DNA of 64,000 nucleotides. Source: Escherichia coli (lineage in GTDB: Bacteria; Pseudomonadota; Gammaproteobacteria; Enterobacterales; Enterobacteriaceae). The stretch is taken from assembly GCF_003018255.1 (NCBI RefSeq), contig NZ_CP027440.1; one strand, 5' to 3'. Made by a program: the position numbers and the translations under genes. Within the stretch, counting starts at the first letter, position 1, and every line of letters starts with the position of its first letter. Below the pieces are notes generated by a model. The model did not search any database. It was not told the origin of the DNA and saw nothing but the letters and a program-made list of their open reading frames with translations. Positions 1,876-47,922 of this stretch are shown piece after piece.

Positions 1876-3225
1876 ATGTCTACGCCATCAGCGCGTACCG
1901 GCGGTTCACTCGACGCCTGGTTTAAAATTTCACAACGTGGAAGCACTGTCCGTCAGGAAGTGGTTGCCGGGTTAACAACATTTCTGGCGATGGTCTACTC
2001 GGTTATCGTCGTTCCAGGCATGTTGGGTAAAGCAGGCTTCCCGCCTGCGGCAGTTTTCGTTGCGACCTGTCTGGTTGCCGGACTCGGTTCTATCGTGATG
2101 GGTCTGTGGGCTAATCTGCCGTTGGCGATTGGTTGCGCCATCTCCCTGACGGCGTTTACCGCATTCAGTCTGGTGCTGGGGCAACATATTAGCGTACCTG
2201 TCGCGCTGGGTGCCGTGTTCCTGATGGGTGTGCTGTTTACGGTCATTTCTGCCACGGGTATCCGTAGCTGGATTTTGCGCAACTTGCCGCACGGTGTGGC
2301 GCACGGCACGGGGATTGGTATCGGTCTGTTCCTGCTGCTGATTGCTGCTAATGGTGTCGGTCTGGTGATTAAAAACCCACTTGATGGTCTGCCCGTCGCG
2401 CTGGGGGATTTCACGACCTTTCCGGTGATGATGTCGTTGGTGGGGCTGGCAGTGATTATCGGCCTGGAAAAACTGAAAGTCCCTGGTGGCATTCTGCTGA
2501 CCATTATCGGTATCTCAATTGTCGGTTTGATCTTCGATCCTAACGTCCATTTCTCCGGCGTTTTCGCCATGCCTTCATTGAGCGATGAAAACGGCAATTC
2601 ACTAATTGGCAGCCTGGACATTATGGGCGCGCTGAATCCTGTAGTCCTGCCAAGCGTTCTGGCGCTGGTGATGACGGCAGTATTTGATGCCACCGGAACT
2701 ATCCGTGCCGTCGCCGGCCAGGCGAACCTGCTGGATAAAGATGGGCAGATCATCGACGGCGGGAAAGCACTGACCACTGACTCCATGAGCAGCGTTTTCT
2801 CTGGCCTGGTGGGTGCAGCTCCGGCAGCGGTATACATCGAGTCTGCGGCGGGTACGGCGGCGGGCGGTAAAACCGGTTTGACGGCTATCACCGTTGGCGT
2901 GCTGTTCCTGCTGATTCTGTTCCTCTCTCCGCTCTCTTACCTCGTTCCGGGGTATGCAACGGCTCCGGCGCTGATGTACGTTGGCCTGCTGATGCTGAGT
3001 AACGTGGCGAAAATCGACTTTGCTGATTTTGTTGATGCGATGGCGGGTCTGGTTACGGCGGTATTCATCGTGCTGACCTGTAACATCGTAACAGGCATCA
3101 TGATCGGCTTCGCGACTCTGGTGATTGGTCGTCTGGTTTCCGGCGAATGGCGCAAGTTGAACATCGGTACGGTCGTTATCGCTGTGGCGCTGGTGACCTT
3201 CTATGCGGGTGGCTGGGCTATCTAA
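1876..3225 (+). CDS. ghxP: Guanine/hypoxanthine permease (NCS2/AzgA family)
   Basis: 449-aa polytopic membrane ORF; position after soxR matches yjcD/ghxP. Confidence 0.9.
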
Positions 3226-15207: not shown

Positions 15208-15583
15208 AGGACTTCTCACGCTACTGCTGTTATTTACCTGTTTTGCGCGCGCTCAGGTCGTAGACACCTGGCAATTCGCCAATCCGCAACAACAGCAACA
15301 GGCGTTAAATATTGCCAGCCAGTTACGTTGTCCGCAGTGCCAGAATCAAAACTTACTGGAATCCAACGCGCCGGTGGCGGTCAGTATGCGCCATCAGGTT
15401 TACAGCATGGTGGCGGAGGGGAAGAACGAAGCTGAAATCATCGGCTGGATGACCGAACGCTACGGAGATTTTGTTCGCTATAACCCACCGTTAACGGGCC
15501 AGACGCTGGTGTTGTGGGCGCTGCCAGTGGTGTTGTTACTGCTGATGGCACTGATCCTCTGGCGAGTGAGGGCGAAGCGATGA
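15200..15583 (+). CDS. nrfF: NrfF (CcmH-like thiol-disulfide protein)
   Basis: 127-aa ORF with signal peptide and CPQC motif. Confidence 0.88.
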
Positions 15584-16176
15584 AACAGTCACAAATACCG
15601 GTGAAAATGCTGACAACACTCACGATTTTGATGGCATTTCTCTGTATCGGCAGTTATCTGTTAAGCCCAAAATGGCAGGCGGTACGTGCGGAGTATCAGC
15701 GTCAGCGCGATCCGCTGCATCAGTTTGCCAGCCAGCAAACCCCAGAAGCGCAGCTTCAGGCATTGCAGGATAAAATCCGCGCTAATCCACAAAACAGCGA
15801 ACAGTGGGCGTTACTGGGCGAGTACTATCTGTGGCAAAATGATTACAGCAATTCGCTGCTGGCGTACCGTCAGGCGTTGCAACTACGTGGTGAGAACGCT
15901 GAACTGTATGCGGCGCTGGCGACGGTGCTTTATTACCAGGCCAGCCAGCATATGACCGCCCAGACACGCGCAATGATCGATAAAGCCCTCGCGCTGGACT
16001 CTAACGAAATCACCGCTCTGATGCTGCTGGCTTCCGATGCGTTTATGCAGGCGAATTACGCGCAGGCCATCGAACTATGGCAAAAAGTGATGGATCTCAA
16101 CTCACCCCGGATCAACCGGACACAGCTGGTCGAGTCGATTAATATGGCGAAATTGTTGCAGCGGAGATCAGATTAA
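15580..16176 (+). CDS. nrfG: NrfG TPR-repeat heme lyase accessory protein
   Basis: 198-aa ORF from [14 protein letters not shown] overlaps nrfF TGA; TPR-like repeats. Confidence 0.85.
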
Positions 16177-28410: not shown

Positions 28411-28682
28411 ATAAATCTCCATTTATCATTTATGTCGTAAATATGTAATCCATGCAAAATACGTCATTTAAAGCTGGCGTTATCATAATTGGGAAATTGC
28501 GACTTTAATAAGTAGAAGTGTGAGCGGAACGAGCCATTTTATTAGGCATTTGTGCTGAAGAGGGAAAAGTACAGTAGAACTATCATTGCTGGGAATAATA
28601 TGGGCTGTTTTATGTAATTATTATATATATTGTACCTGTCGTTGGCACAGCGGGACATTGCGCTACTGTGCCAACGCTTTAC

Positions 28683-30291
<1,609 letters not shown>

Positions 30292-30301
30292 GTTCAATTC
30301 C

Positions 30302-31282
30302 TTACTTACTGATAAGACGGTCAAGGGCGACAGCCGCGATAATTAATCCGCCCATCACCACCAGTTGGTAATAGGTTTGTACCTGCAAAATATTCAGACC
30401 GTTGTTGATGGTGCCGATGATCAACCCGCCAATCACCACAGAGAAAATGCGCCCCTTGCCGCCGAAGAAACTGGTGCCGCCAATGATGGCGCTGGCAATG
30501 GCATAGGTTTCAAAACCCATACCGGCAAGCGGTTCTGCGGCACCGAGTCGTGCAGTTGAGACGACGCCTGCCAGACCTGCACAAACACCGGAGATGATAA
30601 ACACCACCAGGATGTGGAATTTCACGTCAATCCCGGAATAGAACGCCGAGTTTTTGTTGCCGCCCAGTGCGTAGATGTTGCGCCCGAGCCGCATACGCGT
30701 TGTCAGAAACCAAAGGATGAGCGCGACAATTAGCGAGAAGATAACGGGGACAGGTATCCCAATTACGCTGGCGGCAAAGAAGTTCACGAAGTCAAATGAG
30801 AAGCCGTATACCGAGTTGGCATCGGAGATCACCAGCGTGATCCCACGGAAAATAGCGTTGGTGCCAAGGGTGATAATGAACGGGTGTAGTCCCGTCCAGT
30901 TGACCAGGCAGCCGTTGATCGCCCCCAGTGCGCCGCCAACCAGTACACCGCCAATTAGCGCCGCGAGAAACGGATCAATACCTGCCAACATCAGTTTAGC
31001 GGTCACCATACCGGAAAGCGCCAGAATCGCGCCAACCGAAAGGTCGATACCGGCGACCAGGATAGCGAAGAATTCCCCCATGCCGATCAGTACCGTCACG
31101 GAGCTTTGCACAAAAATCTGGGTAATATTATTGGTGGTCAGAAAATATTCTGGCGACAGCGAACCAAAAATGGCGACGATGATCGCCAGGATAAAAAAAG
31201 TACCGTATTTATCCCAGAACAGCGCAAAGTTGAACGGTTTCTTCTCGCTCGCTTCGCTTTTTACTCGTGTGGTAAAGCCCAT
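30302..31282 (-). CDS. alsC: Allose ABC transporter permease
   Basis: 326-aa polytopic ORF. Confidence 0.88.
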   Translation of the reverse strand: MGFTTRVKSEASEKKPFNFALFWDKYGTFFILAIIVAIFGSLSPEYFLTTNNITQIFVQSSVTVLIGMGEFFAILVAGIDLSVGAILALSGMVTAKLMLAGIDPFLAALIGGVLVGGALGAINGCLVNWTGLHPFIITLGTNAIFRGITLVISDANSVYGFSFDFVNFFAASVIGIPVPVIFSLIVALILWFLTTRMRLGRNIYALGGNKNSAFYSGIDVKFHILVVFIISGVCAGLAGVVSTARLGAAEPLAGMGFETYAIASAIIGGTSFFGGKGRIFSVVIGGLIIGTINNGLNILQVQTYYQLVVMGGLIIAAVALDRLISK

Positions 31283-32793
31283 GCCATAATCTCCTCTTCG
31301 CTCATGTCATCGCGATTGGTCAGGATTTGCGTCAGTCGTCCTTCGCAGAACACGGCGATGCGGTCGCAGACGGTGATAATTTCAGGTAGTTCAGATGACA
31401 CCATCAGGATGACTTTTCCGTCGTCCGCCAGTTGGCGCATCACTTTGTAAATTTCGGCTTTCGCGCCAACGTCGATGCCACGGGTAGGTTCATCGAAAAT
31501 GATCACTTCCGGGTGACAGCACAGCCATTTGGAGATCAGGACTTTCTGCTGGTTACCGCCGGAGAGTTCAGTGATGTTCTGGTTTACCGAATGACATTTC
31601 AGCGCCAGCAGTTCGCGCTGGGCTTCAGCGGTACGTTGCTCGTCAACTTCATGAAACAACCCCATCGCGCCTTTATAGCCGCCGTCTTTCAGACTGCGGC
31701 TGATAGCTATGTTCTGAGCGATAGAAAAGTTGGGGAAAAAGCCGTTATCCCGGCGGCTTTCAGTGATGTAAGCCATCCCTTTTTTCACGGCATCCAGGGG
31801 AGAACGTGGAGAGATATCTTTGCCATTAAGACGGATTTCTCCGCCAGCGCGTTTATCAACGCCAAACAGGCAGTTCATCAGTTCAGTACGTCCGGAACCG
31901 ACCAGTCCGGCAAAGCCTAATATTTCTCCCCGGCAGACGCTAAATGAGATATCCCGGACCTTTTTTCTGTCACGGCTGGTGACGTTGCGCACCTCAAAAA
32001 CCGTATCGTGCGCAAGGTTGCTGACATTCTCCTTCATCGCGTTAAAACGGTTTTGCAGTTCGCGACCTACCATCAGACGGACGATATCGTCATTTGACAC
32101 ATCGCTCACCATGCCGCTGCAAACGCTGCTGCCGTCTTTCATCACCGTATAGCGGTCGCAAATACGGCGAATTTCCGCCAATTTATGCGAGATATAGACG
32201 ATGGCCGTACCCTCCTTACGCAACTGATTCATGATCAGAAACAAATAGTCCACCTCTTTATTAGTGAGTGAGGAGGTGGGTTCATCCATGATGATGACTT
32301 TGGCGTCGAGCATCAGCGTTTTGGCAATTTCCAGCATCTGCTTGTGGCTGATAGATAAATTCGCCACTTTCTCATCTAAATCAACTTTCAAGCCCACGCG
32401 TAATAACATCATGGCGGCGCGGACACGCATTTCTCGCCAGTCGATAATATTGACGCCACAGATTTTTTTCGTCAGATGACGACCAATATATAAATTTTCC
32501 AGTACGGTTAATTCATCAATAACGCTGAGTTCTTGATAAATAATCCCGATGCCGAGTTGTGCCGCTAATTTATGATCCAGTTTGTTATAGTTAATGTTAT
32601 TAATGGTAATGGTGCCTTTGGTCGGCTCATGTATTCCGGATAAAACTTTCATTAGCGTGGATTTACCCGCGCCATTTTCTCCTAGTAATGCATGTATTTC
32701 ACCAGGATAAACCGTTAAATTAACCGACTTTAATGCGTGAACCGGACCAAAGGACTTGCCGATCCCCGCCATCGATATATATGGCGTGGCCAT
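31261..32793 (-). CDS. alsA: Allose ABC transporter ATPase (duplicated ABC domains)
   Basis: 510-aa ORF with two Walker A motifs (GENGAGKST, GLVGSGRTE). Confidence 0.9.
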   Translation of the reverse strand: MATPYISMAGIGKSFGPVHALKSVNLTVYPGEIHALLGENGAGKSTLMKVLSGIHEPTKGTITINNINYNKLDHKLAAQLGIGIIYQELSVIDELTVLENLYIGRHLTKKICGVNIIDWREMRVRAAMMLLRVGLKVDLDEKVANLSISHKQMLEIAKTLMLDAKVIIMDEPTSSLTNKEVDYLFLIMNQLRKEGTAIVYISHKLAEIRRICDRYTVMKDGSSVCSGMVSDVSNDDIVRLMVGRELQNRFNAMKENVSNLAHDTVFEVRNVTSRDRKKVRDISFSVCRGEILGFAGLVGSGRTELMNCLFGVDKRAGGEIRLNGKDISPRSPLDAVKKGMAYITESRRDNGFFPNFSIAQNIAISRSLKDGGYKGAMGLFHEVDEQRTAEAQRELLALKCHSVNQNITELSGGNQQKVLISKWLCCHPEVIIFDEPTRGIDVGAKAEIYKVMRQLADDGKVILMVSSELPEIITVCDRIAVFCEGRLTQILTNRDDMSEEEIMAWALPHE

Positions 32794-32826
32794 AAATAAC
32801 CTCTCTGCACGAAATATCGTATTATT

Positions 32827-32912
32827 GCCTGATGGGCTACACTTATCAGGTCTACGTTCAGGTTATTTTGTTGGCCGGATAAGACACTTCATTAGCATCA
32901 CCATCCGGCATC
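32827..32912. repeat. REP elements between alsB and alsA
   Basis: GCCTGATGGGCTACACTTATCAGG and GCCGGATAAGAC..CATCCGGC palindromes of the REP type. Confidence 0.7.
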
Positions 32913-32920
32913 ATTTAGTT

Positions 32921-33856
32921 TTATTGAGTGACCAGGATTGAATCGACCAGTTTAAATTCCGGTGCTTTATCCAGCGGGATAACCTTGCCGGATTTTTCAG
33001 CGTCAACCATCAGCTTCAGACCCGTTGCGCCGATATCCGCCGGGTTCTGGGCAACCGTCGCGGTCATTTGTCCGGCTTCCACCATTTTGCGGGCTTCCGG
33101 AATGCCATCTGTACCGACGACCAGCACTTTTCCCGTTTTTCCGGCGTTTGCGACAGCCTGAGCAACACCCATTGCCATCGTGTCATTCGCGCAATAGATC
33201 GCTTTAATATTCGGATTACGTTGCAACACGTTAGTGGCGACATCCAGTGCTTTAATACGGTCCCAGTCGGCAGGCTGGCTGGCGACAAGCTTGATCTGGC
33301 TTGCTTTTTTGAAGGCTTCGGTGGCACCATTACGACGCGCTTCACCGGAGGCGTTACCGGCTTTACCCTCAATGATTGCGACTTCACCCCCTTCGGCACC
33401 CAGCTTGTCAATAATGAATGACGCGCCTTTCGCCCCGACGGCAACATTATCGGTGGTGACAAAACCTTCCACATTACCGCCTGCTTTTTTCAGATTATCC
33501 ATGTCGATTTTTTCATCGAGATTGACCAGATAAATGCCTTTTTTCCATGCGCGGGCGACAGGCATGACCAGGTTCACTGAGGATAATGGTGCGAAGGCGA
33601 TACCTTTGTAATTTTTATTACTGAGATCTTCAAATAACTGCAATTGAGATTGAAAATCGCCTTCTGAAGGAGAGGCAAAAATATCAACGCTGACGCCCAG
33701 CGTTTTTGCTTCATCTTCAATGCCTTTTTTCATATCTACCCAAAATGGATTGGAGAGTGTTTTCAATACGACGGCATATTCGGCGGCAGCAAAAGCGCTG
33801 GTTGACAACATTAAGCCCACGAGTGTGCCGCTGAAATATTTCAGATATTTATTCAT
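32921..33856 (-). CDS. alsB: Periplasmic D-allose-binding protein
   Basis: 311 codons from MNKYLKYF; signal peptide ending AFA. Confidence 0.9.
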   Translation of the reverse strand: MNKYLKYFSGTLVGLMLSTSAFAAAEYAVVLKTLSNPFWVDMKKGIEDEAKTLGVSVDIFASPSEGDFQSQLQLFEDLSNKNYKGIAFAPLSSVNLVMPVARAWKKGIYLVNLDEKIDMDNLKKAGGNVEGFVTTDNVAVGAKGASFIIDKLGAEGGEVAIIEGKAGNASGEARRNGATEAFKKASQIKLVASQPADWDRIKALDVATNVLQRNPNIKAIYCANDTMAMGVAQAVANAGKTGKVLVVGTDGIPEARKMVEAGQMTATVAQNPADIGATGLKLMVDAEKSGKVIPLDKAPEFKLVDSILVTQ

Positions 33857-33914
33857 AATCATGTTCTCACGGTAAGGGGATAGGTAACTCCGCGATGGCG
33901 GAATTACCTTTTTC

Positions 33915-34805
33915 TTATTTCAGCGCGCCTGGTGAGAAGAAATCAACAATTGCGCCGGTTTTTTGCATATTAATATTAGCTTGTTCAATGTTGAGCTGGG
34001 CGACAGAGACAAAAAACGCGTCCAGCAAAGTTAGTTGTAATATTCTTGCCGAGGCATTACGACCTAATAACGGTGTTTCCGGGGCCGGTGAGCAAATAAT
34101 ATAATCGGCCAGCTTCGCTATCGGTGAATGGTAGCTATGCGTTATACAAATAATCTTTGCCCCGTTCTTTTTTGCCAGTTCTACAGCCGCTTTTACATCA
34201 CTGGTTCGCCCGGAATGGGTCACCACCAGCACCACATCTCCTTCCTGTAACAACGAAGCAGACATCATCATGATGTGAGCGTCCGGATAGGCCTGGCAGC
34301 GTACGCCAATGCGCAAAAACTTGTGCTGTACATCAGCACAGATTGCATTTGATCCTCCGGCACCGTACAAATCCCGCTGTCTGGCCTGATAGAAAAAGCG
34401 GGCGGCACGGTGGATCTCATCAACGTTGACGATCGACTGACCTTCCATAATGGTGCGTAAAGTGATGTTAAATACCTTATTCACCACATCCTGCGGCGCT
34501 TCATCAAAAGCCAACTCGGAAGGCAATACTTGTTCTGACTGAGAAAAATAATCTTCCAGCGCACTGCGTAAGTTACGAAAGCCGCTAAACCCCAGCAGCT
34601 TTGATACCTTAACGATCATCGCTTCAGATACCGCCAGAGCTTCTGCGACATCTTTAATTGCGGGTGCACAACTCAGGTTACCGGGTTTGAGTAACCACTC
34701 CACGATGCGGCTTTCGTTTTCTGTCATTCCTTCCTGCTTCATTCGCAGGTAAGGCGCTAACCCGATACCGTTCGGAAGCGCTGAATCAAACTCTGACTGG
34801 CTCAT
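33915..34805 (-). CDS. rpiR: RpiR/AlsR transcriptional repressor (HTH + SIS domain)
   Basis: ~296-aa ORF, divergent from rpiB. Confidence 0.85.
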   Translation of the reverse strand: MSQSEFDSALPNGIGLAPYLRMKQEGMTENESRIVEWLLKPGNLSCAPAIKDVAEALAVSEAMIVKVSKLLGFSGFRNLRSALEDYFSQSEQVLPSELAFDEAPQDVVNKVFNITLRTIMEGQSIVNVDEIHRAARFFYQARQRDLYGAGGSNAICADVQHKFLRIGVRCQAYPDAHIMMMSASLLQEGDVVLVVTHSGRTSDVKAAVELAKKNGAKIICITHSYHSPIAKLADYIICSPAPETPLLGRNASARILQLTLLDAFFVSVAQLNIEQANINMQKTGAIVDFFSPGALK

Positions 34806-35162
34806 CACGTTCTCTTGTCCTTGAATTGAAGACGCCACTATATCACCACAGCAAGAACAGAAAAGATGCTGGCAACTTCACAAAAAAATAAAATTTATAA
34901 AGTTTGTTTTGTTGTGAATAATGGAGAGTGGCTTAAAATTTCATTTCATTTAATCACTTTAAAAACATGATGTTATTGTTTTCCTGGTTTATTAGATGAT
35001 AGATGTTGCTGGATAGTGAGTGTCTTTAACGCTATTGCGCTGCCAGATGTAACTCTGTAAAACAGATCGGGAAGGCGGATTTCATCGATTTTGGGTGTTT
35101 TTAATTCATTTACATCACAAATGTTTTTTGATTGTGAAGTTTTGCGCGGGCGGGGAAGATGA

Positions 35163-43390: not shown

Positions 43391-44116
43391 TCAGTGCTCC
43401 ATAGTGAATTCAATCATGTCGGCGCGCGTCAGGCTGACGGAGTACTCCGCCGGGCTGCTTTCACCGTCACGGTGGTTAAGGGTGCGCACGCACAGCAGCG
43501 GCGACATATTCGGGATTTCAAGACGCTGGCACTCTTTGGCCTGGGCGCGGCGGGCGCTGATCCGCGTCTGGCTGCGGCGCAGCGCAATCCCCGTTTGCTC
43601 GCGCAGAAAATCGTGCAGCGAGCCGCTGTCGAAGCGTTGCAGCGTCGGCCAGAGGGTGAGGTCCGCAAAGTAGTGGTCGATTAAACAGAGCGCGACGCCG
43701 TTGACCCGGCGCAGGGTGCGCAGGTGGATAACGTTCTCGCCCTCGGTTATCCCCAGCGCGTCAGCGACGTGACCGGAGGCCGGGCGCAGCACAGACAGCA
43801 GTTTTTCGCTGGTGGGATGGCTGCCCTGATCCAGCAGGTTCTGGCTAAAACGCGCCTGGGCGTTGAGCGGGTAATCGAACGGGCGCATCAGCACCAGCAC
43901 GCCGACGCCCTGACGGCGCTGTACCCAGCCTTTTTCCACCAGTTGGTCGATGGCGCGGCGCAGGGTGTGGCGGTTCACCTCAAAGCGCGCCGCCAGTTGC
44001 TGCTCGGCGGGAAGATAGTCGCCGCAGCGGTAGTGTTGACGAAGCTCCTGCTCAAGTTTTGCGGCTATCTCCTGATAGCGTGTTGGGTAGCTGGTCGGAT
44101 GTGTAGACAAGTGCAT
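43391..44116 (-). CDS. phnF: GntR-family repressor of the phn operon
   Basis: ~241-aa ORF with N-terminal HTH and UTRA-type C-terminus. Confidence 0.88.
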   Translation of the reverse strand: MHLSTHPTSYPTRYQEIAAKLEQELRQHYRCGDYLPAEQQLAARFEVNRHTLRRAIDQLVEKGWVQRRQGVGVLVLMRPFDYPLNAQARFSQNLLDQGSHPTSEKLLSVLRPASGHVADALGITEGENVIHLRTLRRVNGVALCLIDHYFADLTLWPTLQRFDSGSLHDFLREQTGIALRRSQTRISARRAQAKECQRLEIPNMSPLLCVRTLNHRDGESSPAEYSVSLTRADMIEFTMEH

Positions 44117-44136
44117 AGATATCAATGCCTCGCTTA

Positions 44137-44916
44137 TCAGATAAAGTGCTTACGCAACCGTTGAGAGAGGAAATCCAGCAGGCTGACCGTGACGATAATC
44201 AGCACCATCAGGGCGCAGGTTTGCTGGAACTGGAAACCGCGAATCGCTTCCCACAGGGTGACGCCGATCCCGCCCGCGCCGACCATGCCAACAACGGTGG
44301 CCGAACGGACGTTGGATTCGAAGCGATAGAGGGAGTAGGAGATCAGCAGCGGCATCACCTGCGGCAGCACGCCGTAGAGGATCTCTTCGAGCTTGTTGGC
44401 ACCAGTGGCGCGAATACCTTCCACCGGGCCGGGTTCAATTGCTTCTACCGCTTCGGAAAGCAGTTTGGAGAGCACGCCGGTGGTGTGGATAAACAGCGCC
44501 AGTACGCCAGCGAACGGACCGAGACCGACGGCGACCACGAACAGCATGGCGAAGACCATCTCGTTAATGGCGCGGCAGGCGTCCATCAGGCGGCGAACGG
44601 GCTGATACACCCACCACGGCACCAGGTTTTCAGCGCTCATCAGGCCGAAGGGGATGGAGAGAACGACTGCCAGCGCGGTGCCCCAGACGGCGATTTGCAG
44701 CGTGACGGCCATTTCGGTGAGGTAATCCTGCCATTGGCTGAAATCGGGCGGGAAGAAGTCGGCGGCGAAGGTTGCCATGTTGCCGCCGTCTTTGATCAGC
44801 GTAAGCGGGGCCATTTCCGCGCCCTGCCACGAGACGACCAACACGGCGAGAACAATGGCCCAGCTCAGAAGCGAGAACCAGCTGCGCTTGGGTGGGGCGA
44901 TGGTGATGGTTTGCAT
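44137..44916 (-). CDS. phnE: Phosphonate ABC transporter permease (intact allele)
   Basis: Single continuous ORF (259 aa from MQTITIAPP; 280 aa from an upstream in-frame start), with no frameshift. Confidence 0.85.
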
Positions 44917-44931
44917 GTTTGGCTCCGGTCT

Positions 44932-45018
44932 GTAGGCCGGATAAGGTGCTTGCACCGCATCCGGCATCAACGTCTGCACATTGTCGGATGCGACGCCGGG
45001 GCGTCTTATCCGACCTAC
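44932..45018. repeat. REP pair inside the phn operon (phnD-phnE spacer)
   Basis: GTAGGCCGGATAAGGTGCTTGCACCGCATCCGGCA and GTCGGATGCGACGCCGGGGCGTCTTATCCGACCTAC. Confidence 0.8.
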
Positions 45019-45021
45019 GAT

Positions 45022-46038
45022 TTACTGCACCGCTTTACTCACCGAACTCATCGCGCTTAACGCGTTGTTCAGGCGGTCCAGGTCATCCAGTTGCGCCTGA
45101 ATGGCGCTGGTTTTTGCCAGCTTGTCCTGCTCATTCAGCCCTTTATTGCCTTTCACGCCCTGCATCTCTTTAAACAGCGCGAGCTGGCGAATCGGCACCA
45201 GTTGCAGGTCGCTGGAGGCGCGGAACGGGGCCCAGCCCAGGCGTTCCAGCACCGCTTTCTCTTCCGGCGTTTTGCCGTAGTTCATAAAGAAGTCGTAGAT
45301 CTTGTCTTTGGTGGTTTCGGACAGATTTTTGCGCCAGACGATCGGATCGCCTGGGATCAGCGGCGATTTCCAGATCACCTTCAGTTCTTTGAGCTTCTCC
45401 GGTGCGGAGGTTTTCAGCTTGTCGAGGTTTTCGGTGTTGTTGGTCGCCACATCCACCTGTTTGTTGGCGACGGCCAGCGCGTTGGTTTCATGCCCGGCGT
45501 TGACGGTGCGCTTGAAGTCGCTGGCGGAGATATTGTTTTTGGCGAAGACGTAGTAGCCGGGGACGAGGAAGCCAGAGGTGGAGTTAGGATCGCCATTGCC
45601 AAAGGTGAGATCTTTACGCTTCGCCAGCAGATCGTTCAGGTTGTTGATCGGACTGTCTTTGTTGACGATCAACACGCTCCAGTAACCTGGCGATCCATCC
45701 GCCGCGACCGTCTGGGCGAAGACCTGACCGTTGGCGCGATCCACCGCTTCCATCGCCGACAGATTGCCGTACCAGGCGATATCCACTTTGTTGAAGCGCA
45801 TTCCCTGGATAATGCCCGCGTAGTCCGGGGCAAAGAAGGCGTTGACCTTTACGCCCAGCTTCTTCTCCATATCCTGTAAGAACGGCGTCCATTGCGGTTT
45901 CAGGTTTTGCTGTGATTCCGTTGAAATAATGCCGAAATTCAGCGCCTTTTCCTGCTCTTCGGCGTGCGCCGGGCTTAACAGGGTGCTGAGGCTGAACATG
46001 CTGGTGAAGGCCAGCGAGGCAATTATCTTAGCGTTCAT
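45022..46038 (-). CDS. phnD: Periplasmic phosphonate-binding protein
   Basis: 338-aa ORF with signal peptide. Confidence 0.9.
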   Translation of the reverse strand: MNAKIIASLAFTSMFSLSTLLSPAHAEEQEKALNFGIISTESQQNLKPQWTPFLQDMEKKLGVKVNAFFAPDYAGIIQGMRFNKVDIAWYGNLSAMEAVDRANGQVFAQTVAADGSPGYWSVLIVNKDSPINNLNDLLAKRKDLTFGNGDPNSTSGFLVPGYYVFAKNNISASDFKRTVNAGHETNALAVANKQVDVATNNTENLDKLKTSAPEKLKELKVIWKSPLIPGDPIVWRKNLSETTKDKIYDFFMNYGKTPEEKAVLERLGWAPFRASSDLQLVPIRQLALFKEMQGVKGNKGLNEQDKLAKTSAIQAQLDDLDRLNNALSAMSSVSKAVQ

Positions 46039-46062: not shown

Positions 46063-46851
46063 TCAGGCAGCTTTCGCGTTCTCTTCAATGCGATTAATGC
46101 TGCGGTAGAGATGGTCAAAACGTTCGTTATCAAACAGTTGGCTGCTGCCGTCGTAAAAGACGTGCCCCTGACGCAGGGCGACGATGCGTTCGCAGTAGCG
46201 CAGGGCGTAATCCACCTGATGTAGCGTGACGACCACGGTGATGCCGTCGTTCTGGTTGATGTCGCGCAGGGTGTCCATCACGATGCGCGCCGATTCCGGG
46301 TCCAGCGAGGCGATGGGTTCGTCCGCCAGAATCACCTTCGCCTGCTGCATCAGCGCGCGGGCAATCGCCACACGCTGTTGCTGTCCGCCGGAGAGGGTGG
46401 AAACGCGCTGATGGGCAAAGTGCACCATGCCAACGCGGGTCAGCGCCTGTAACGCGCGCTGTTTCTGCTCGCGGGTGAAGTAGCTAAAACAGGTGCGCCA
46501 GAATGGCGTGCTGCCGAGCGCGCCAATCAGCACGTTCTCCAGTACGCTCAGGCGATTCACCAGGTTGAATTGTTGGAAGATGTAGCCGGTATTGGCGCGG
46601 CTTTTGCGGATATCGCGGGCCAGGCGGCCTTCGCGCTGGACTGTGCGGCCCAGCAGCTCGATATGGCTACCGGCAGATTTATCGCCGGTAATCAAACCGC
46701 TTAAGTGACGTAAAAGGGTGGATTTGCCGGAACCCGACGGCCCAAGCAGAGCCACCATTTCACCGTGATGAATGTTCAGATCAACCGCGTGCAGCGCCTG
46801 ATGCTGATTGAAGGTTTTGGCGAGCTTCTCGACACGGATAATCGTTTGCAT
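46063..46851 (-). CDS. phnC: Phosphonate ABC transporter ATPase
   Basis: 262-aa ORF with Walker [10 protein letters not shown] and LSGGQQQR signature. Confidence 0.92.
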
Positions 46852-46889
46852 GATGCAGCCTCCCTAAAAAAGTGGCTCCATCGTGGCGG

Positions 46890-46930
46890 ATTATTGTGAC
46901 GATTTTGTTAACTAAAAGTGACTAACGGAT
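46890..46930 (-). promoter_or_regulatory. Pho box (PhoB site) of the phnC promoter
   Basis: Minus-strand CGTTAGTCACTTTTAGTTAACAAAATCGTCACAAT, ~45-80 bp upstream of phnC; resembles the CTGTCAT-type pho box. Confidence 0.55.
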
Positions 46931-46983
46931 GAAGAGTTAACGAGATTTCGATGACAGTGCGGGAGGGCGGCCCTCCCGGCGGG

Positions 46984-47427
46984 TTAGTGCGTTGGTTGTT
47001 GTTTGACGACATTAATCATCCACGGTACGCCAAATTTATCGGTGACTTTGCCGAAGCCATGCGCCCAGAAAGTTTCCTGCCAGGCCATTTCGATTTTTCC
47101 GTTAGCTGCAAGGTTATCAAACCAGCGTTTTCCTTCTTCGACCTGTTGCGAATCGAGCACTAGCGTAAAGCCGGAGTAGCTGGCTTTTCCTGACGGTATA
47201 GCATCGCTCATCATGATGTCGCTTCCTGCAATGCGCACGTTGGCATGAGCGATGGCGGTATCGGGAAATTGCATTCCGGAAGGGCAGTTCTCGGCGCTGT
47301 CCTGCGCTGATTTCGGCATTTCGCCGAAGCTGATTTTATAGAGCAGTTCCGCGCCCAACGTACGTTGATAATAGGCAATCGCGTCGGAACAGTTACCGGC
47401 AAAAGAGAGGTAGGGACTTAACGGCAT
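46984..47427 (-). CDS. yjdN: VOC/glyoxalase-like protein
   Basis: 147-aa ORF; position matches yjdN (phnB). Confidence 0.8.
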   Translation of the reverse strand: MPLSPYLSFAGNCSDAIAYYQRTLGAELLYKISFGEMPKSAQDSAENCPSGMQFPDTAIAHANVRIAGSDIMMSDAIPSGKASYSGFTLVLDSQQVEEGKRWFDNLAANGKIEMAWQETFWAHGFGKVTDKFGVPWMINVVKQQPTH

Positions 47428-47471
47428 GATGGTGACCTCAGTTAAGAGAAGCCCGTTAAGTGTAGTTCGAA

Positions 47472-47580
<109 letters not shown>

Positions 47581-47586
47581 ATACAA

Positions 47587-47922
47587 TCAGTTCTTTTTCA
47601 CAAACTCAGACTTCAGTTTCATCGGACCAAAACCGTCGATTTTGCAATCGATGTTATGGTCGCCTTCAACCAGGCGGATGTTTTTCACTTTGGTGCCAAT
47701 TTTCAGCATCGAAGAGCTACCTTTCACTTTCAGATCTTTAATGATGGTAACGCTGTCGCCGTCAGCCAGCAGATTGCCGTTAGCATCTTTAACGATCAGC
47801 TCGTCGCTTTCCTGTGCAGGTTCTGCGTCGTTCCATTCGTAGGCACATTCCGGGCAGATGTACATGCCGTTATCTTCGTAGGTGTATTCGGAGTTGCATT
47901 TTGGGCAGTGTGGTAATGACAT
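47587..47922 (-). CDS. yjdM: Zinc-ribbon protein PhnA/YjdM
   Basis: 111 codons from [21 protein letters not shown] zinc ribbon. Confidence 0.85.

What the first reader, a model, noticed from the sequence alone, without database searches (positions are those of the whole stretch)
46890..46930. Pho box upstream of phnC
Two 7-bp direct-repeat elements with an 11-bp period sit where the -35 would be in the phnC promoter, as expected for a PhoB-activated promoter.
Basis: partly seen in the sequence, partly recalled or inferred. Interest (0 to 1): 0.2.

Follow-up and report, generated by a model that had tools for sequence, protein, structure and literature searches.

The report
Known PhoB box of phnC promoter

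Summary
The window is E. coli chromosome. phnC lies on the minus strand (46063..46851), downstream of yjdN. The flagged interval contains the textbook phnC Pho box.

- **Motif match.** I built a PhoB matrix from 58 published ChIP-seq sites, leaving phnC out. Its best match upstream of phnC is GTTAACAAAATCGTCACA (46912..46895, minus strand) at 15.3 bits. That ranks 2nd of 127,966 positions in the window, and only 10 of 20,000 shuffles of the intergenic region do as well.
- **Identity with the known site.** It differs at 2 of 18 bases from the K-12 site ATTAACCAAATCGTCACA. That site is bound by PhoB in ChIP-chip, ChIP-seq and EMSA, and phnC RNA falls from 32,470 to 13 in a phoB deletion.
- **Position.** Nine bp after the 18-mer comes CACGAT, the same spacing as the -10 hexamers of pstS, phoA, phoB and phoE. 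No -35 is present.
- **Conservation.** Box, spacing and a CAnnAT hexamer are kept in 23 other Enterobacterales.

Two refinements apply. There are four in-phase 11-bp units (two tandem boxes, 46934..46895), plus a conserved lone CTGTCAT at 46957..46951. As literal repeats the units are weak (4 of 7 identical). The window also carries a minority promoter haplotype.

Verdict: real, correctly interpreted, already known, low interest.

The parts
46895..46912 (-). Promoter-proximal Pho box, GTTAACAAAATCGTCACA (units GTTAACA at 46912..46906 and CGTCACA at 46901..46895). In the classical 7+4+7 frame it is 46913..46896.
   Evidence: PWM 15.3 bits, rank 2 of 127,966 positions. 10 of 20,000 intergenic shuffles reach this score. 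It is the counterpart of the K-12 ChIP-seq and ChIP-chip site. TTAAC and GTCA are invariant or nearly so in 25 Enterobacterales sequences.
46917..46934 (-). Distal, weaker Pho box, CTTCATCCGTTAGTCACT (units CTTCATC at 46934..46928 and AGTCACT at 46923..46917). It sits 22 bp upstream of the proximal box and in phase with it.
   Evidence: PWM 6.2 bits here and 6.8 in K-12. Half-site scores are 3.7 and 5.1. The CTTCA core has a mean majority fraction of 0.98 across 25 sequences, against 0.59 for the adjacent spacer. A PWM hit at -83 recurs in many genera.
46951..46957 (-). Lone perfect consensus unit CTGTCAT, 22 bp upstream of the distal box and in phase. The slot between them (46945..46939) is not motif-like.
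   Evidence: Half-site score of 8.9, the highest in the region. Kept in at least 70% of the 25 aligned sequences at fixed spacing, while its flanks vary. As a bare 7-mer it is not rarer than chance: 5 in the window against 6.65 expected. Its function is inferred only.
46880..46885 (-). Inferred -10 hexamer CACGAT.
   Evidence: It lies 9 bp after the 18-mer, the same spacing as TATTTT (pstS), TATAGT (phoA), CATAAT (phoB) and TAAAAA (phoE) in K-12. CAnnAT is invariant at this spacing in 25 sequences. The better-looking AATAAT at 46895..46890 is not conserved.
46873..46873 (-). Predicted transcription start (A, 7 nt after the -10 hexamer), giving a 22-nt leader.
   Evidence: Inferred from canonical spacing only. 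The surrounding GCCAC is largely conserved. It was not measured here, and the mapping paper (Makino 1991) is not held in the library.
46859..46864 (-). Shine-Dalgarno sequence GGGAGG of phnC.
   Evidence: Read directly from the sequence. It lies 7 nt before the ATG, and GAGG is largely conserved.
46063..46851 (-). phnC, the ATP-binding subunit of the phosphonate ABC transporter and first gene of phnCDEFGHIJKLMNOP.
   Evidence: NCBIfam NF007438 at 604 bits and TIGR02315 at 346 bits. RefSeq annotation of matching E. coli genomes.
46960..46978 (-). GC-rich hairpin (8-bp stem, 3-nt loop) just after the yjdN stop codon (46986..46984). It marks the upstream edge of the promoter region.
   Evidence: strand folding gives -16.3 kcal/mol for the 56-nt stretch, with a z-score of only -1.2. 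No T-run follows it, so it is not a canonical intrinsic terminator.

Best explanation
This is the PhoB-dependent sigma-70 promoter of the E. coli phn (phosphonate uptake and C-P lyase) operon. Under phosphate limitation, PhoR phosphorylates PhoB. PhoB~P dimers then bind head-to-tail to 11-bp direct-repeat units.

The main site is the proximal Pho box GTTAACAAAATCGTCACA (46912..46895, minus strand). It occupies roughly -39 to -22 relative to the predicted start, where a -35 hexamer is missing. From there PhoB recruits RNA polymerase through sigma-70 region 4 to the weak -10 hexamer CACGAT (46885..46880). Transcription would start near A46873 and run through phnC to phnP.

A second, weaker box directly upstream (46934..46917) probably adds cooperative binding. 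A lone CTGTCAT at 46957..46951 may do the same.

Shown here: the motif match, its statistics, the spacing, the missing -35, the identity of the genes and the cross-species conservation. Taken from the literature for the K-12 allele: PhoB binding in vivo and in vitro, and PhoB-dependent expression. Inferred: the exact transcription start, the roles of the distal units, and the behaviour of this particular allele.
For: 1. Motif. The site scores 15.3 bits with a matrix of 58 ChIP-seq sites that excludes phnC (training range 6.8-24.3, median 15.9). It ranks 2nd in the window and is rare in shuffles.

2. Phasing. Four units are spaced exactly 11 bp apart.

3. Architecture. The 18-mer is followed by 9 bp and then a -10-like hexamer, as in pstS, phoA, phoB and phoE. 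The consensus scan finds no sigma-70 promoter on the minus strand of the spacer.

4. Identity with the known site. The alignment with K-12, O157:H7 and ST131 shows the same promoter with a few SNPs. The K-12 site is the ChIP-seq and ChIP-chip PhoB site. EMSA gives a KD of 1.7 uM. It has the fastest PhoB~P off-rate (indicating low affinity) and the latest onset among the five promoters tested. phnC RNA is 32,470 in wild type and 13 in a phoB deletion, and sigma-70 occupancy is more than 2-fold lower in the phoB deletion.

5. Conservation. In 23 Enterobacterales with PhnC 75-93% identical, the best PWM hit in the upstream region is the counterpart of this box in all but Hafnia paralvei. It lies at -59 to -63 from the ATG. 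In Hafnia it lies at -77, because of a longer leader, and scores second by 0.1 bit. Scores range from 10.9 to 17.9, with a median of 14.5. The unit cores are more conserved than the spacers: 0.98, 0.70, 0.92 and 0.90 against 0.59, 0.57 and 0.78. Among 56 more distant PhnC loci, 71% have a site of at least 10.9 bits within 150 bp upstream, against 1.1% of shuffles.

6. Downstream genes are phnC, phnD, phnE and phnF through phnP.
Against: - Nothing was measured on this allele. It differs from K-12 at 5 of 89 promoter positions, 3 of them in the box array.
- The upstream unit of the proximal box (AGTTAAC in the classical frame) matches the classical CTGTCAT at only 2 of 7 positions.
- The literal 11-bp repeat is weak.
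- The inferred -10 hexamer CACGAT is poor, and the transcription start was not verified here.
- A stronger-looking hexamer, AATAAT, lies 10 bp upstream of CACGAT.
- A PWM score alone is not proof of binding. The only higher-scoring site in the window (15847..15830, inside a coding region) has no reported ChIP-seq peak in K-12.
Confidence: 0.95

Rival explanations
1. The active PhoB site is the middle register AGTCACTTTTAGTTAACA (46923..46906). It would work with the better-looking -10 hexamer AATAAT (46895..46890), so transcription would start about 10 bp further upstream, near 46883.
For: AATAAT matches TATAAT at 5 of 6 positions. The middle register scores 8.0 bits here. PhoB units are present in every 11-bp slot, so several registers are possible.
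Against: - The spacing would be 10 bp after the 18-mer, not the 9 bp seen at pstS, phoA, phoB and phoE.
- AATAAT is not conserved. Other genera have TTGATG, TTTCAT or CTTCCC there, whereas CAnnAT 10 bp downstream is invariant.
- The ChIP-seq and ChIP-chip motif assignment is the proximal box.
- The proximal register scores 15.3 bits against 8.0.
Confidence: 0.04
2. The match is a chance resemblance in an A/T-rich spacer, and phnC is controlled in some other way, for example only by the PhnF repressor or by read-through from yjdN.
For: Short degenerate motifs are common. An equally good PWM hit exists inside a coding region of the window with no reported binding. CTGTCAT as a 7-mer is not enriched in the window. 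No T-run follows the hairpin after yjdN, so some read-through is conceivable.
Against: - Only 10 of 20,000 shuffles of the spacer reach the score.
- Position, spacing and unit cores are conserved across genera while the spacers drift.
- Published ChIP, EMSA and phoB-deletion RNA-seq data on the near-identical K-12 promoter show direct PhoB control.
Confidence: 0.01

Closest known systems
E. coli K-12 phnC promoter (phnCp) Pho box. Its original mapping in Makino et al. 1991, J Bacteriol 173:2665, is cited from memory, because the paper is not held. ChIP-chip is in PMC3465305, ChIP-seq in PMC10294691, and EMSA and reporters in PMC4447250 and PMC6194859.
   Same: Same locus and gene order (yjdN then phnC). 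The promoter is the same base for base from 46905 to the ATG. The unit positions, the -10 hexamer CACGAT, the leader and the Shine-Dalgarno sequence are all shared.
   Different: There are five linked SNPs in 89 bp, three of them in the box array. CTGTTAG becomes CCGTTAG at 46927, AATTAAC becomes AGTTAAC at 46912, and CCAAAT becomes CAAAAT at 46906. The predicted proximal-box score is 15.3 bits against 13.7. This haplotype is exact in 357 of 5,378 E. coli records, while about 4,939 carry the K-12-like one. Unlike in K-12, phnE downstream is intact.
pstS promoter of E. coli, the archetypal PhoB promoter with tandem Pho boxes
   Same: Tandem 22-bp boxes made of 11-bp phased units. The proximal box ends 9 bp (18-mer frame) before the -10 hexamer. 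No -35 is present.
   Different: The pstS boxes are near-consensus (24.3 and 16.3 bits) and its -10 is TATTTT. The phnC boxes score 15.3 and 6.2 bits with a poor -10. This fits the published low affinity and late onset of phnC.
phoA and phoB promoters of E. coli
   Same: A single strong proximal box with the same 9-bp spacing to the -10 hexamer (TATAGT and CATAAT).
   Different: Their boxes score higher (20.2 and 22.2 bits, although both were in the training set). The phoB promoter is also auto-repressed at high PhoB, which was not seen for phnC.

Membership tests
Pho box (PhoB~P binding site of a PhoB-activated sigma-70 promoter) | Two 11-bp direct-repeat units (7 conserved bases plus 4 A/T-rich bases) matching CTGTCAT-A(A/T)A(T/A)-CTGT(C/A)A(C/T), or the ChIP-derived PhoB matrix | tested here: met
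   The site scores 15.3 bits with the matrix of 58 ChIP-seq sites that excludes phnC. This is near the training median of 15.9 and ranks 2nd of 127,966 positions. Against the classical consensus the match is 11 of 18: upstream unit 2 of 7, spacer AAAA 4 of 4, downstream unit 5 of 7. The definition is taken from PMC3465305 and PMC4415409.
Pho box (PhoB~P binding site of a PhoB-activated sigma-70 promoter) | More than chance would give at this place | tested here: met
   Shuffled 64-kb windows contain 0.36 such sites on average. That gives 0.0003 expected in the 132-bp spacer on the sense strand, and 10 of 20,000 shuffles of the spacer itself reach the score.
Pho box (PhoB~P binding site of a PhoB-activated sigma-70 promoter) | The box sits about 10 bp upstream of the -10 hexamer, in place of a -35 hexamer | tested here: met
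   The 18-mer is followed by 9 bp and then CACGAT, the same spacing as at pstS, phoA, phoB and phoE in K-12. Hexamers at the -35 position (ACAAAA, CAAAAT, AACAAA) match TTGACA at 1-2 of 6 bases. No sigma-70 consensus promoter is found on this strand. The -10 hexamer and the transcription start are inferred, not measured.
Pho box (PhoB~P binding site of a PhoB-activated sigma-70 promoter) | PhoB binds the site in vivo and in vitro | not testable with these tools
   Published for the K-12 allele, which differs at 2 of 18 bases: ChIP-seq peak at 4325211, ChIP-chip, and EMSA with a KD of 1.7 uM. Not measured for this haplotype.
Pho box (PhoB~P binding site of a PhoB-activated sigma-70 promoter) | Transcription depends on PhoB and on phosphate limitation | not testable with these tools
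   Published values: 32,470 against 13 in a phoB deletion, a PhoB-dependent yfp reporter, the full-length operon transcript only under phosphate starvation, and 146-fold and 81-fold induction in APEC and O157:H7.
Pho box (PhoB~P binding site of a PhoB-activated sigma-70 promoter) | The controlled genes act in phosphorus assimilation | tested here: met
   phnC, phnD, phnE and phnF pass the NCBIfam equivalog cut-offs. phnG to phnP are annotated in a matching E. coli genome.
Pho box (PhoB~P binding site of a PhoB-activated sigma-70 promoter) | Site and position are conserved in relatives (phylogenetic footprint) | tested here: met
   Of 23 Enterobacterales, 22 have their best hit at -59 to -63 from the ATG. 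In Hafnia the counterpart lies at -77. CAnnAT follows 9 bp downstream. TTAAC, GTCA, TTCA and CA..AT are invariant or nearly invariant in the 25-sequence alignment.

The most novel reading that the evidence does not exclude
The phnC promoter may not be a single two-unit Pho box. It may be a longer in-phase array: a proximal box, a conserved distal box, and a lone perfect CTGTCAT 22 bp further upstream, spanning 46957..46895. Its layout is kept across Enterobacterales. The minority haplotype in this window has an A/T-richer spacer and a proximal box predicted to be 1.6 bits stronger. That could bind PhoB~P more tightly and shift the characteristically late onset of phn induction. In addition, PhoB sites upstream of phnC homologues look more widespread in Gammaproteobacteria (71% of 56 loci) than the 'only a few species' reported in PMC10294691.
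Probability: 0.3. Interest if true: 0.2.

Novelty: already known. Interest (0 to 1): 0.07.

Why it matters
It matters little as a discovery. The phnC Pho box has been a standard member of the E. coli Pho regulon since about 1990, and both the binding and the PhoB dependence have been measured repeatedly.

It also adds some small refinements:
- The register and the -10 hexamer that conservation supports.
- A conserved distal box and an orphan unit.
- A minority promoter haplotype carried by about 7% of complete E. coli genomes. It might modestly change the timing of phosphonate-operon induction.

Tried and rejected
- **Literal repeat analysis.** Self-comparison of 46940..46890 at offsets 5-29 shows no outstanding 11-bp signal: 0.38 at offset 11, against 0.41 at offsets 14 and 22. 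The evidence is therefore a motif match, not repetition.
- **AATAAT (46895..46890) as the -10 hexamer with the middle-register box.** Rejected on spacing and lack of conservation.
- **The lone CTGTCAT plus the next slot as a full box.** It scores only 4.3 bits and the second slot is not conserved. It was kept only as a possible orphan unit.
- **A known RNA element in the spacer.** The Rfam E-value scan of 46600..47700 found nothing in the spacer. Its only match is a REP-type naRNA4 element at 47492..47569.
- **The hairpin after yjdN as an intrinsic terminator.** No T-run follows it and the z-score is -1.2.
- **Reading the original mapping and review papers.** Three PMC ids recalled from memory were tried. 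PMC207835 is Makino et al. 1991. PMC1464414 was expected to be Yuan et al. 2006, and PMC3957732 to be Hove-Jensen et al. 2014. None of the three is held, so the experimentally mapped transcription start could not be cited. The supplement of PMC4447250 with the drawn Pho boxes is also not held.
- **A palindromic operator for the GntR-type repressor PhnF around GTTAAC.** The flanks are not conserved in other genera, so this was not pursued.

Full report
**What is there.** The window is E. coli chromosome. A 401-bp stretch around the finding matches 5,414 of 5,426 complete E. coli genomes, and in them it is annotated as yjdN followed by phnC. In the window phnC is on the minus strand (46063..46851, ATG A at 46851). 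Downstream come phnD (45022..46038), an intact phnE (44137..44979) and phnF (43391..44125). Upstream is yjdN (46984..47427). The flagged interval 46890..46930 lies in the 132-bp yjdN-phnC spacer. Read on the minus strand, the spacer is ...GGGAGGGCCGCCCTCCCGCACTGTCATCGAAATCTCGTTAACTCTTCATCCGTTAGTCACTTTTAGTTAACAAAATCGTCACAATAATCCGCCACGATGGAGCCACTTTTTTAGGGAGGCTGCATCATG.

**Checking the observation.** I built an 18-bp matrix from the 58 PhoB binding-site sequences in Table 1 of the ChIP-seq study PMC10294691, deliberately leaving out phnC.

- The best match upstream of phnC is GTTAACAAAATCGTCACA at 46912..46895 (minus strand), at 15.3 bits. The training sites range from 6.8 to 24.3 with a median of 15.9.
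- It ranks 2nd of 127,966 positions in the window.
- Dinucleotide shuffles of the window give 0.36 such sites per 64 kb. That is about 0.0003 expected in the spacer on the sense strand.
- Only 10 of 20,000 shuffles of the spacer itself reach that score.

A 7-bp half-site matrix gives five 7-mers above 3.7 bits between 46990 and 46860. Four are spaced exactly 11 bp apart: 46934 CTTCATC, 46923 AGTCACT, 46912 GTTAACA and 46901 CGTCACA. The fifth, a perfect TGTCATC at 46956, is a further 22 bp upstream and in phase.

- As literal repeats the units are poor. GTTAACA and CGTCACA share 4 of 7 bases, and offset 11 does not stand out in a self-comparison.
- The most similar pair (AGTCAC and CGTCAC) is 22 bp apart.
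- There are four phased units, that is two tandem boxes, rather than two.

**Position in the promoter.** In K-12 the promoter-proximal 18-mers of pstS, phoA, phoB and phoE are each followed by 9 bp and then a -10-like hexamer: TATTTT, TATAGT, CATAAT and TAAAAA. The phnC 18-mer is followed by 9 bp and then CACGAT (46885..46880), which keeps the critical A2 and T6. Hexamers at the -35 position match TTGACA at only 1-2 of 6 bases, and the consensus scan finds no sigma-70 promoter on this strand of the spacer. Canonical spacing puts the start near A46873, giving a 22-nt leader with the Shine-Dalgarno sequence GGGAGG at 46864..46859. The box therefore covers about -39 to -22, 'where the -35 would be'. 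The start itself is inferred. The paper that mapped it (Makino et al. 1991) is not in the library.

**Identity with the known site.** Alignment with K-12, O157:H7 and an ST131 strain shows the same promoter. The K-12 sequence ATTAACCAAATCGTCACA is the site assigned by ChIP-seq, with the peak at 4325211. Its classical-frame equivalent, AATTAACCAAATCGTCAC, is the site assigned by ChIP-chip.
- phnC RNA is 32,470 in wild type and 13 in a phoB deletion, and sigma-70 occupancy is more than 2-fold lower without PhoB.
- EMSA gives a KD of 1.7 uM, about 7-fold weaker than the phoB promoter.
- It has the fastest PhoB~P off-rate and the latest induction onset of the five Pho promoters tested.
- The 14-gene transcript appears under phosphate starvation.
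- Strong induction is also seen in APEC and O157:H7.

**Related sequences.**
- *Sample.* A scan of species-representative genomes with PhnC returned 80 loci.
- *Position.* In 22 of the 23 Enterobacterales with PhnC 75-93% identical, the best matrix hit in the 250 bp upstream lies at -59 to -63 from the ATG. It has the form yTTAACnnnnnyGTCAyA and is followed 9 bp later by CACGAT, CAGCAT or CACCAT. These loci include Citrobacter, Kluyvera, Pseudocitrobacter, Enterobacter, Leclercia, Lelliottia, Buttiauxella, Cedecea and Shimwellia.
- *Hafnia exception.* In Hafnia the counterpart lies at -77, because of a longer leader, and scores second by 0.1 bit.
- *Footprint.* In a 25-sequence alignment, TTCA (unit 1), TTAAC (unit 3), GTCA (unit 4) and CA..AT (-10) are invariant or nearly so. 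The unit cores are better conserved than the spacers between them: 0.98, 0.70, 0.92 and 0.90 against 0.59, 0.57 and 0.78.
- *Rival hexamer.* AATAAT (46895..46890) is not conserved, which argues against the alternative register.
- *Orphan unit.* The lone CTGTCAT is kept, at fixed spacing, in at least 70% of the sequences although its flanks vary.
- *More distant loci.* Among 56 PhnC loci at 58-66% identity (Vibrio, Pseudomonas, Aeromonas and others), 71% have a site of at least 10.9 bits within 150 bp upstream, against 1.1% of shuffles. [quoted passage not shown] My sample, however, was selected for PhnC similarity and rests on matrix scores only.

**Mechanism.** The following rests on established knowledge of the PhoB family (the Pho box definition and the tandem head-to-tail binding in PMC4415409; the interaction with sigma-70 in Makino 1993 and Blanco 2002, as cited). 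Low phosphate leads PhoR to phosphorylate PhoB. A PhoB~P dimer then binds the two 11-bp units of the proximal box head-to-tail and recruits RNA polymerase through sigma-70 region 4, compensating for the absent -35. The weak upstream unit (TTAAC) and the poor -10 hexamer fit the measured low affinity and late onset. The distal box probably contributes cooperative occupancy, as at pstS and ugpB, which also show phased multi-unit arrays. The orphan unit may do the same. That last step is inference.

**What differs in this window.** The window carries a minority promoter haplotype. The 89 bp from 46872 to 46960 are exact in 357 of 5,378 records. About 4,939 records carry the K-12-like haplotype, which has five linked differences. 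Three of these fall in the box array, at 46927, 46912 and 46906. The matrix predicts a slightly stronger proximal box, 15.3 bits against 13.7, mainly because the spacer becomes AAAA. This is a prediction only.

**Rivals.** The alternative register with AATAAT as the -10 hexamer, and a chance match, are both disfavoured by spacing, statistics, conservation and the published binding data. No Rfam family matches the spacer. The GC hairpin after the yjdN stop codon is not a canonical terminator.

**Verdict.** The feature is the already-known PhoB-dependent phnC promoter, so interest is low. The only mildly new points are the conserved extended array, the conserved CAnnAT -10 hexamer and the haplotype difference.

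Noticed in passing
window 46951..46957 (minus strand): A perfect consensus PhoB unit, CTGTCAT, lies 22 bp upstream of the distal box and in phase with the array. It is kept at fixed spacing in at least 70% of 25 Enterobacterales sequences while its flanks vary. The slot between it and the distal box is not motif-like.
   Followed up: partly
window 46872..46960: The promoter haplotype of this window is exact in only 357 of 5,378 E. coli records. About 4,939 records carry a K-12-like haplotype with five linked SNPs in 89 bp. There are few intermediates (81 records at 95-99% identity).
   Followed up: partly
window 44137..44979 (minus strand); slippage site at about 44496..44511: phnE is intact (PhnE profile positions 8-251 of 252). 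The 8-bp slippage site reads GCTGGCGT ACTGGCGC, with no exact tandem copies. This is therefore not the cryptic frameshifted K-12 allele, and the operon is probably functional.
   Followed up: partly
window 47492..47569: Rfam naRNA4 (a REP-type element) matches at 96 bits in the yjdM-yjdN spacer. K-12 has 657 bp between yjdM and yjdN, against 159 bp here, so the number of REP units differs between strains.
   Followed up: no
window 15830..15847 (minus strand): The only PhoB-matrix hit in the window that scores higher than the phnC box is TGTAATCATTTTGCCACA (15.5 bits). It lies antisense inside the ORF 15514..16176, in the nrf cluster; by its size and position this is probably nrfG. No PhoB ChIP-seq peak is listed near there in K-12.
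   Followed up: no
window 46960..46978 (minus strand): An 8-bp GC-rich hairpin lies immediately after the yjdN stop codon, with no T-run after it. Similar G+C-rich stems are present at the same place in several other genera. Its role (mRNA end, weak terminator or insulator of phnCp) is unknown.
   Followed up: partly
L004 (E. coli R32_14_1F) 3104..3184: This strain has a deletion joining the end of yjdN to a phnN remnant, which removes the promoter and phnC to phnM. About 50 of the 5,426 complete genomes lack the promoter stretch.
   Followed up: no
window about 28600..34900, compared with L092: Strain CFSAN061763 is 100% identical to the window over the 401-bp stretch around the promoter (46700..47100). 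Between phnP and yjcS it has only yjdP and one annotated gene, an rpiB-like isomerase. The window has about 6 kb of extra ORFs there, probably the rpiR/als genes. The window therefore comes from a different strain background.
   Followed up: no
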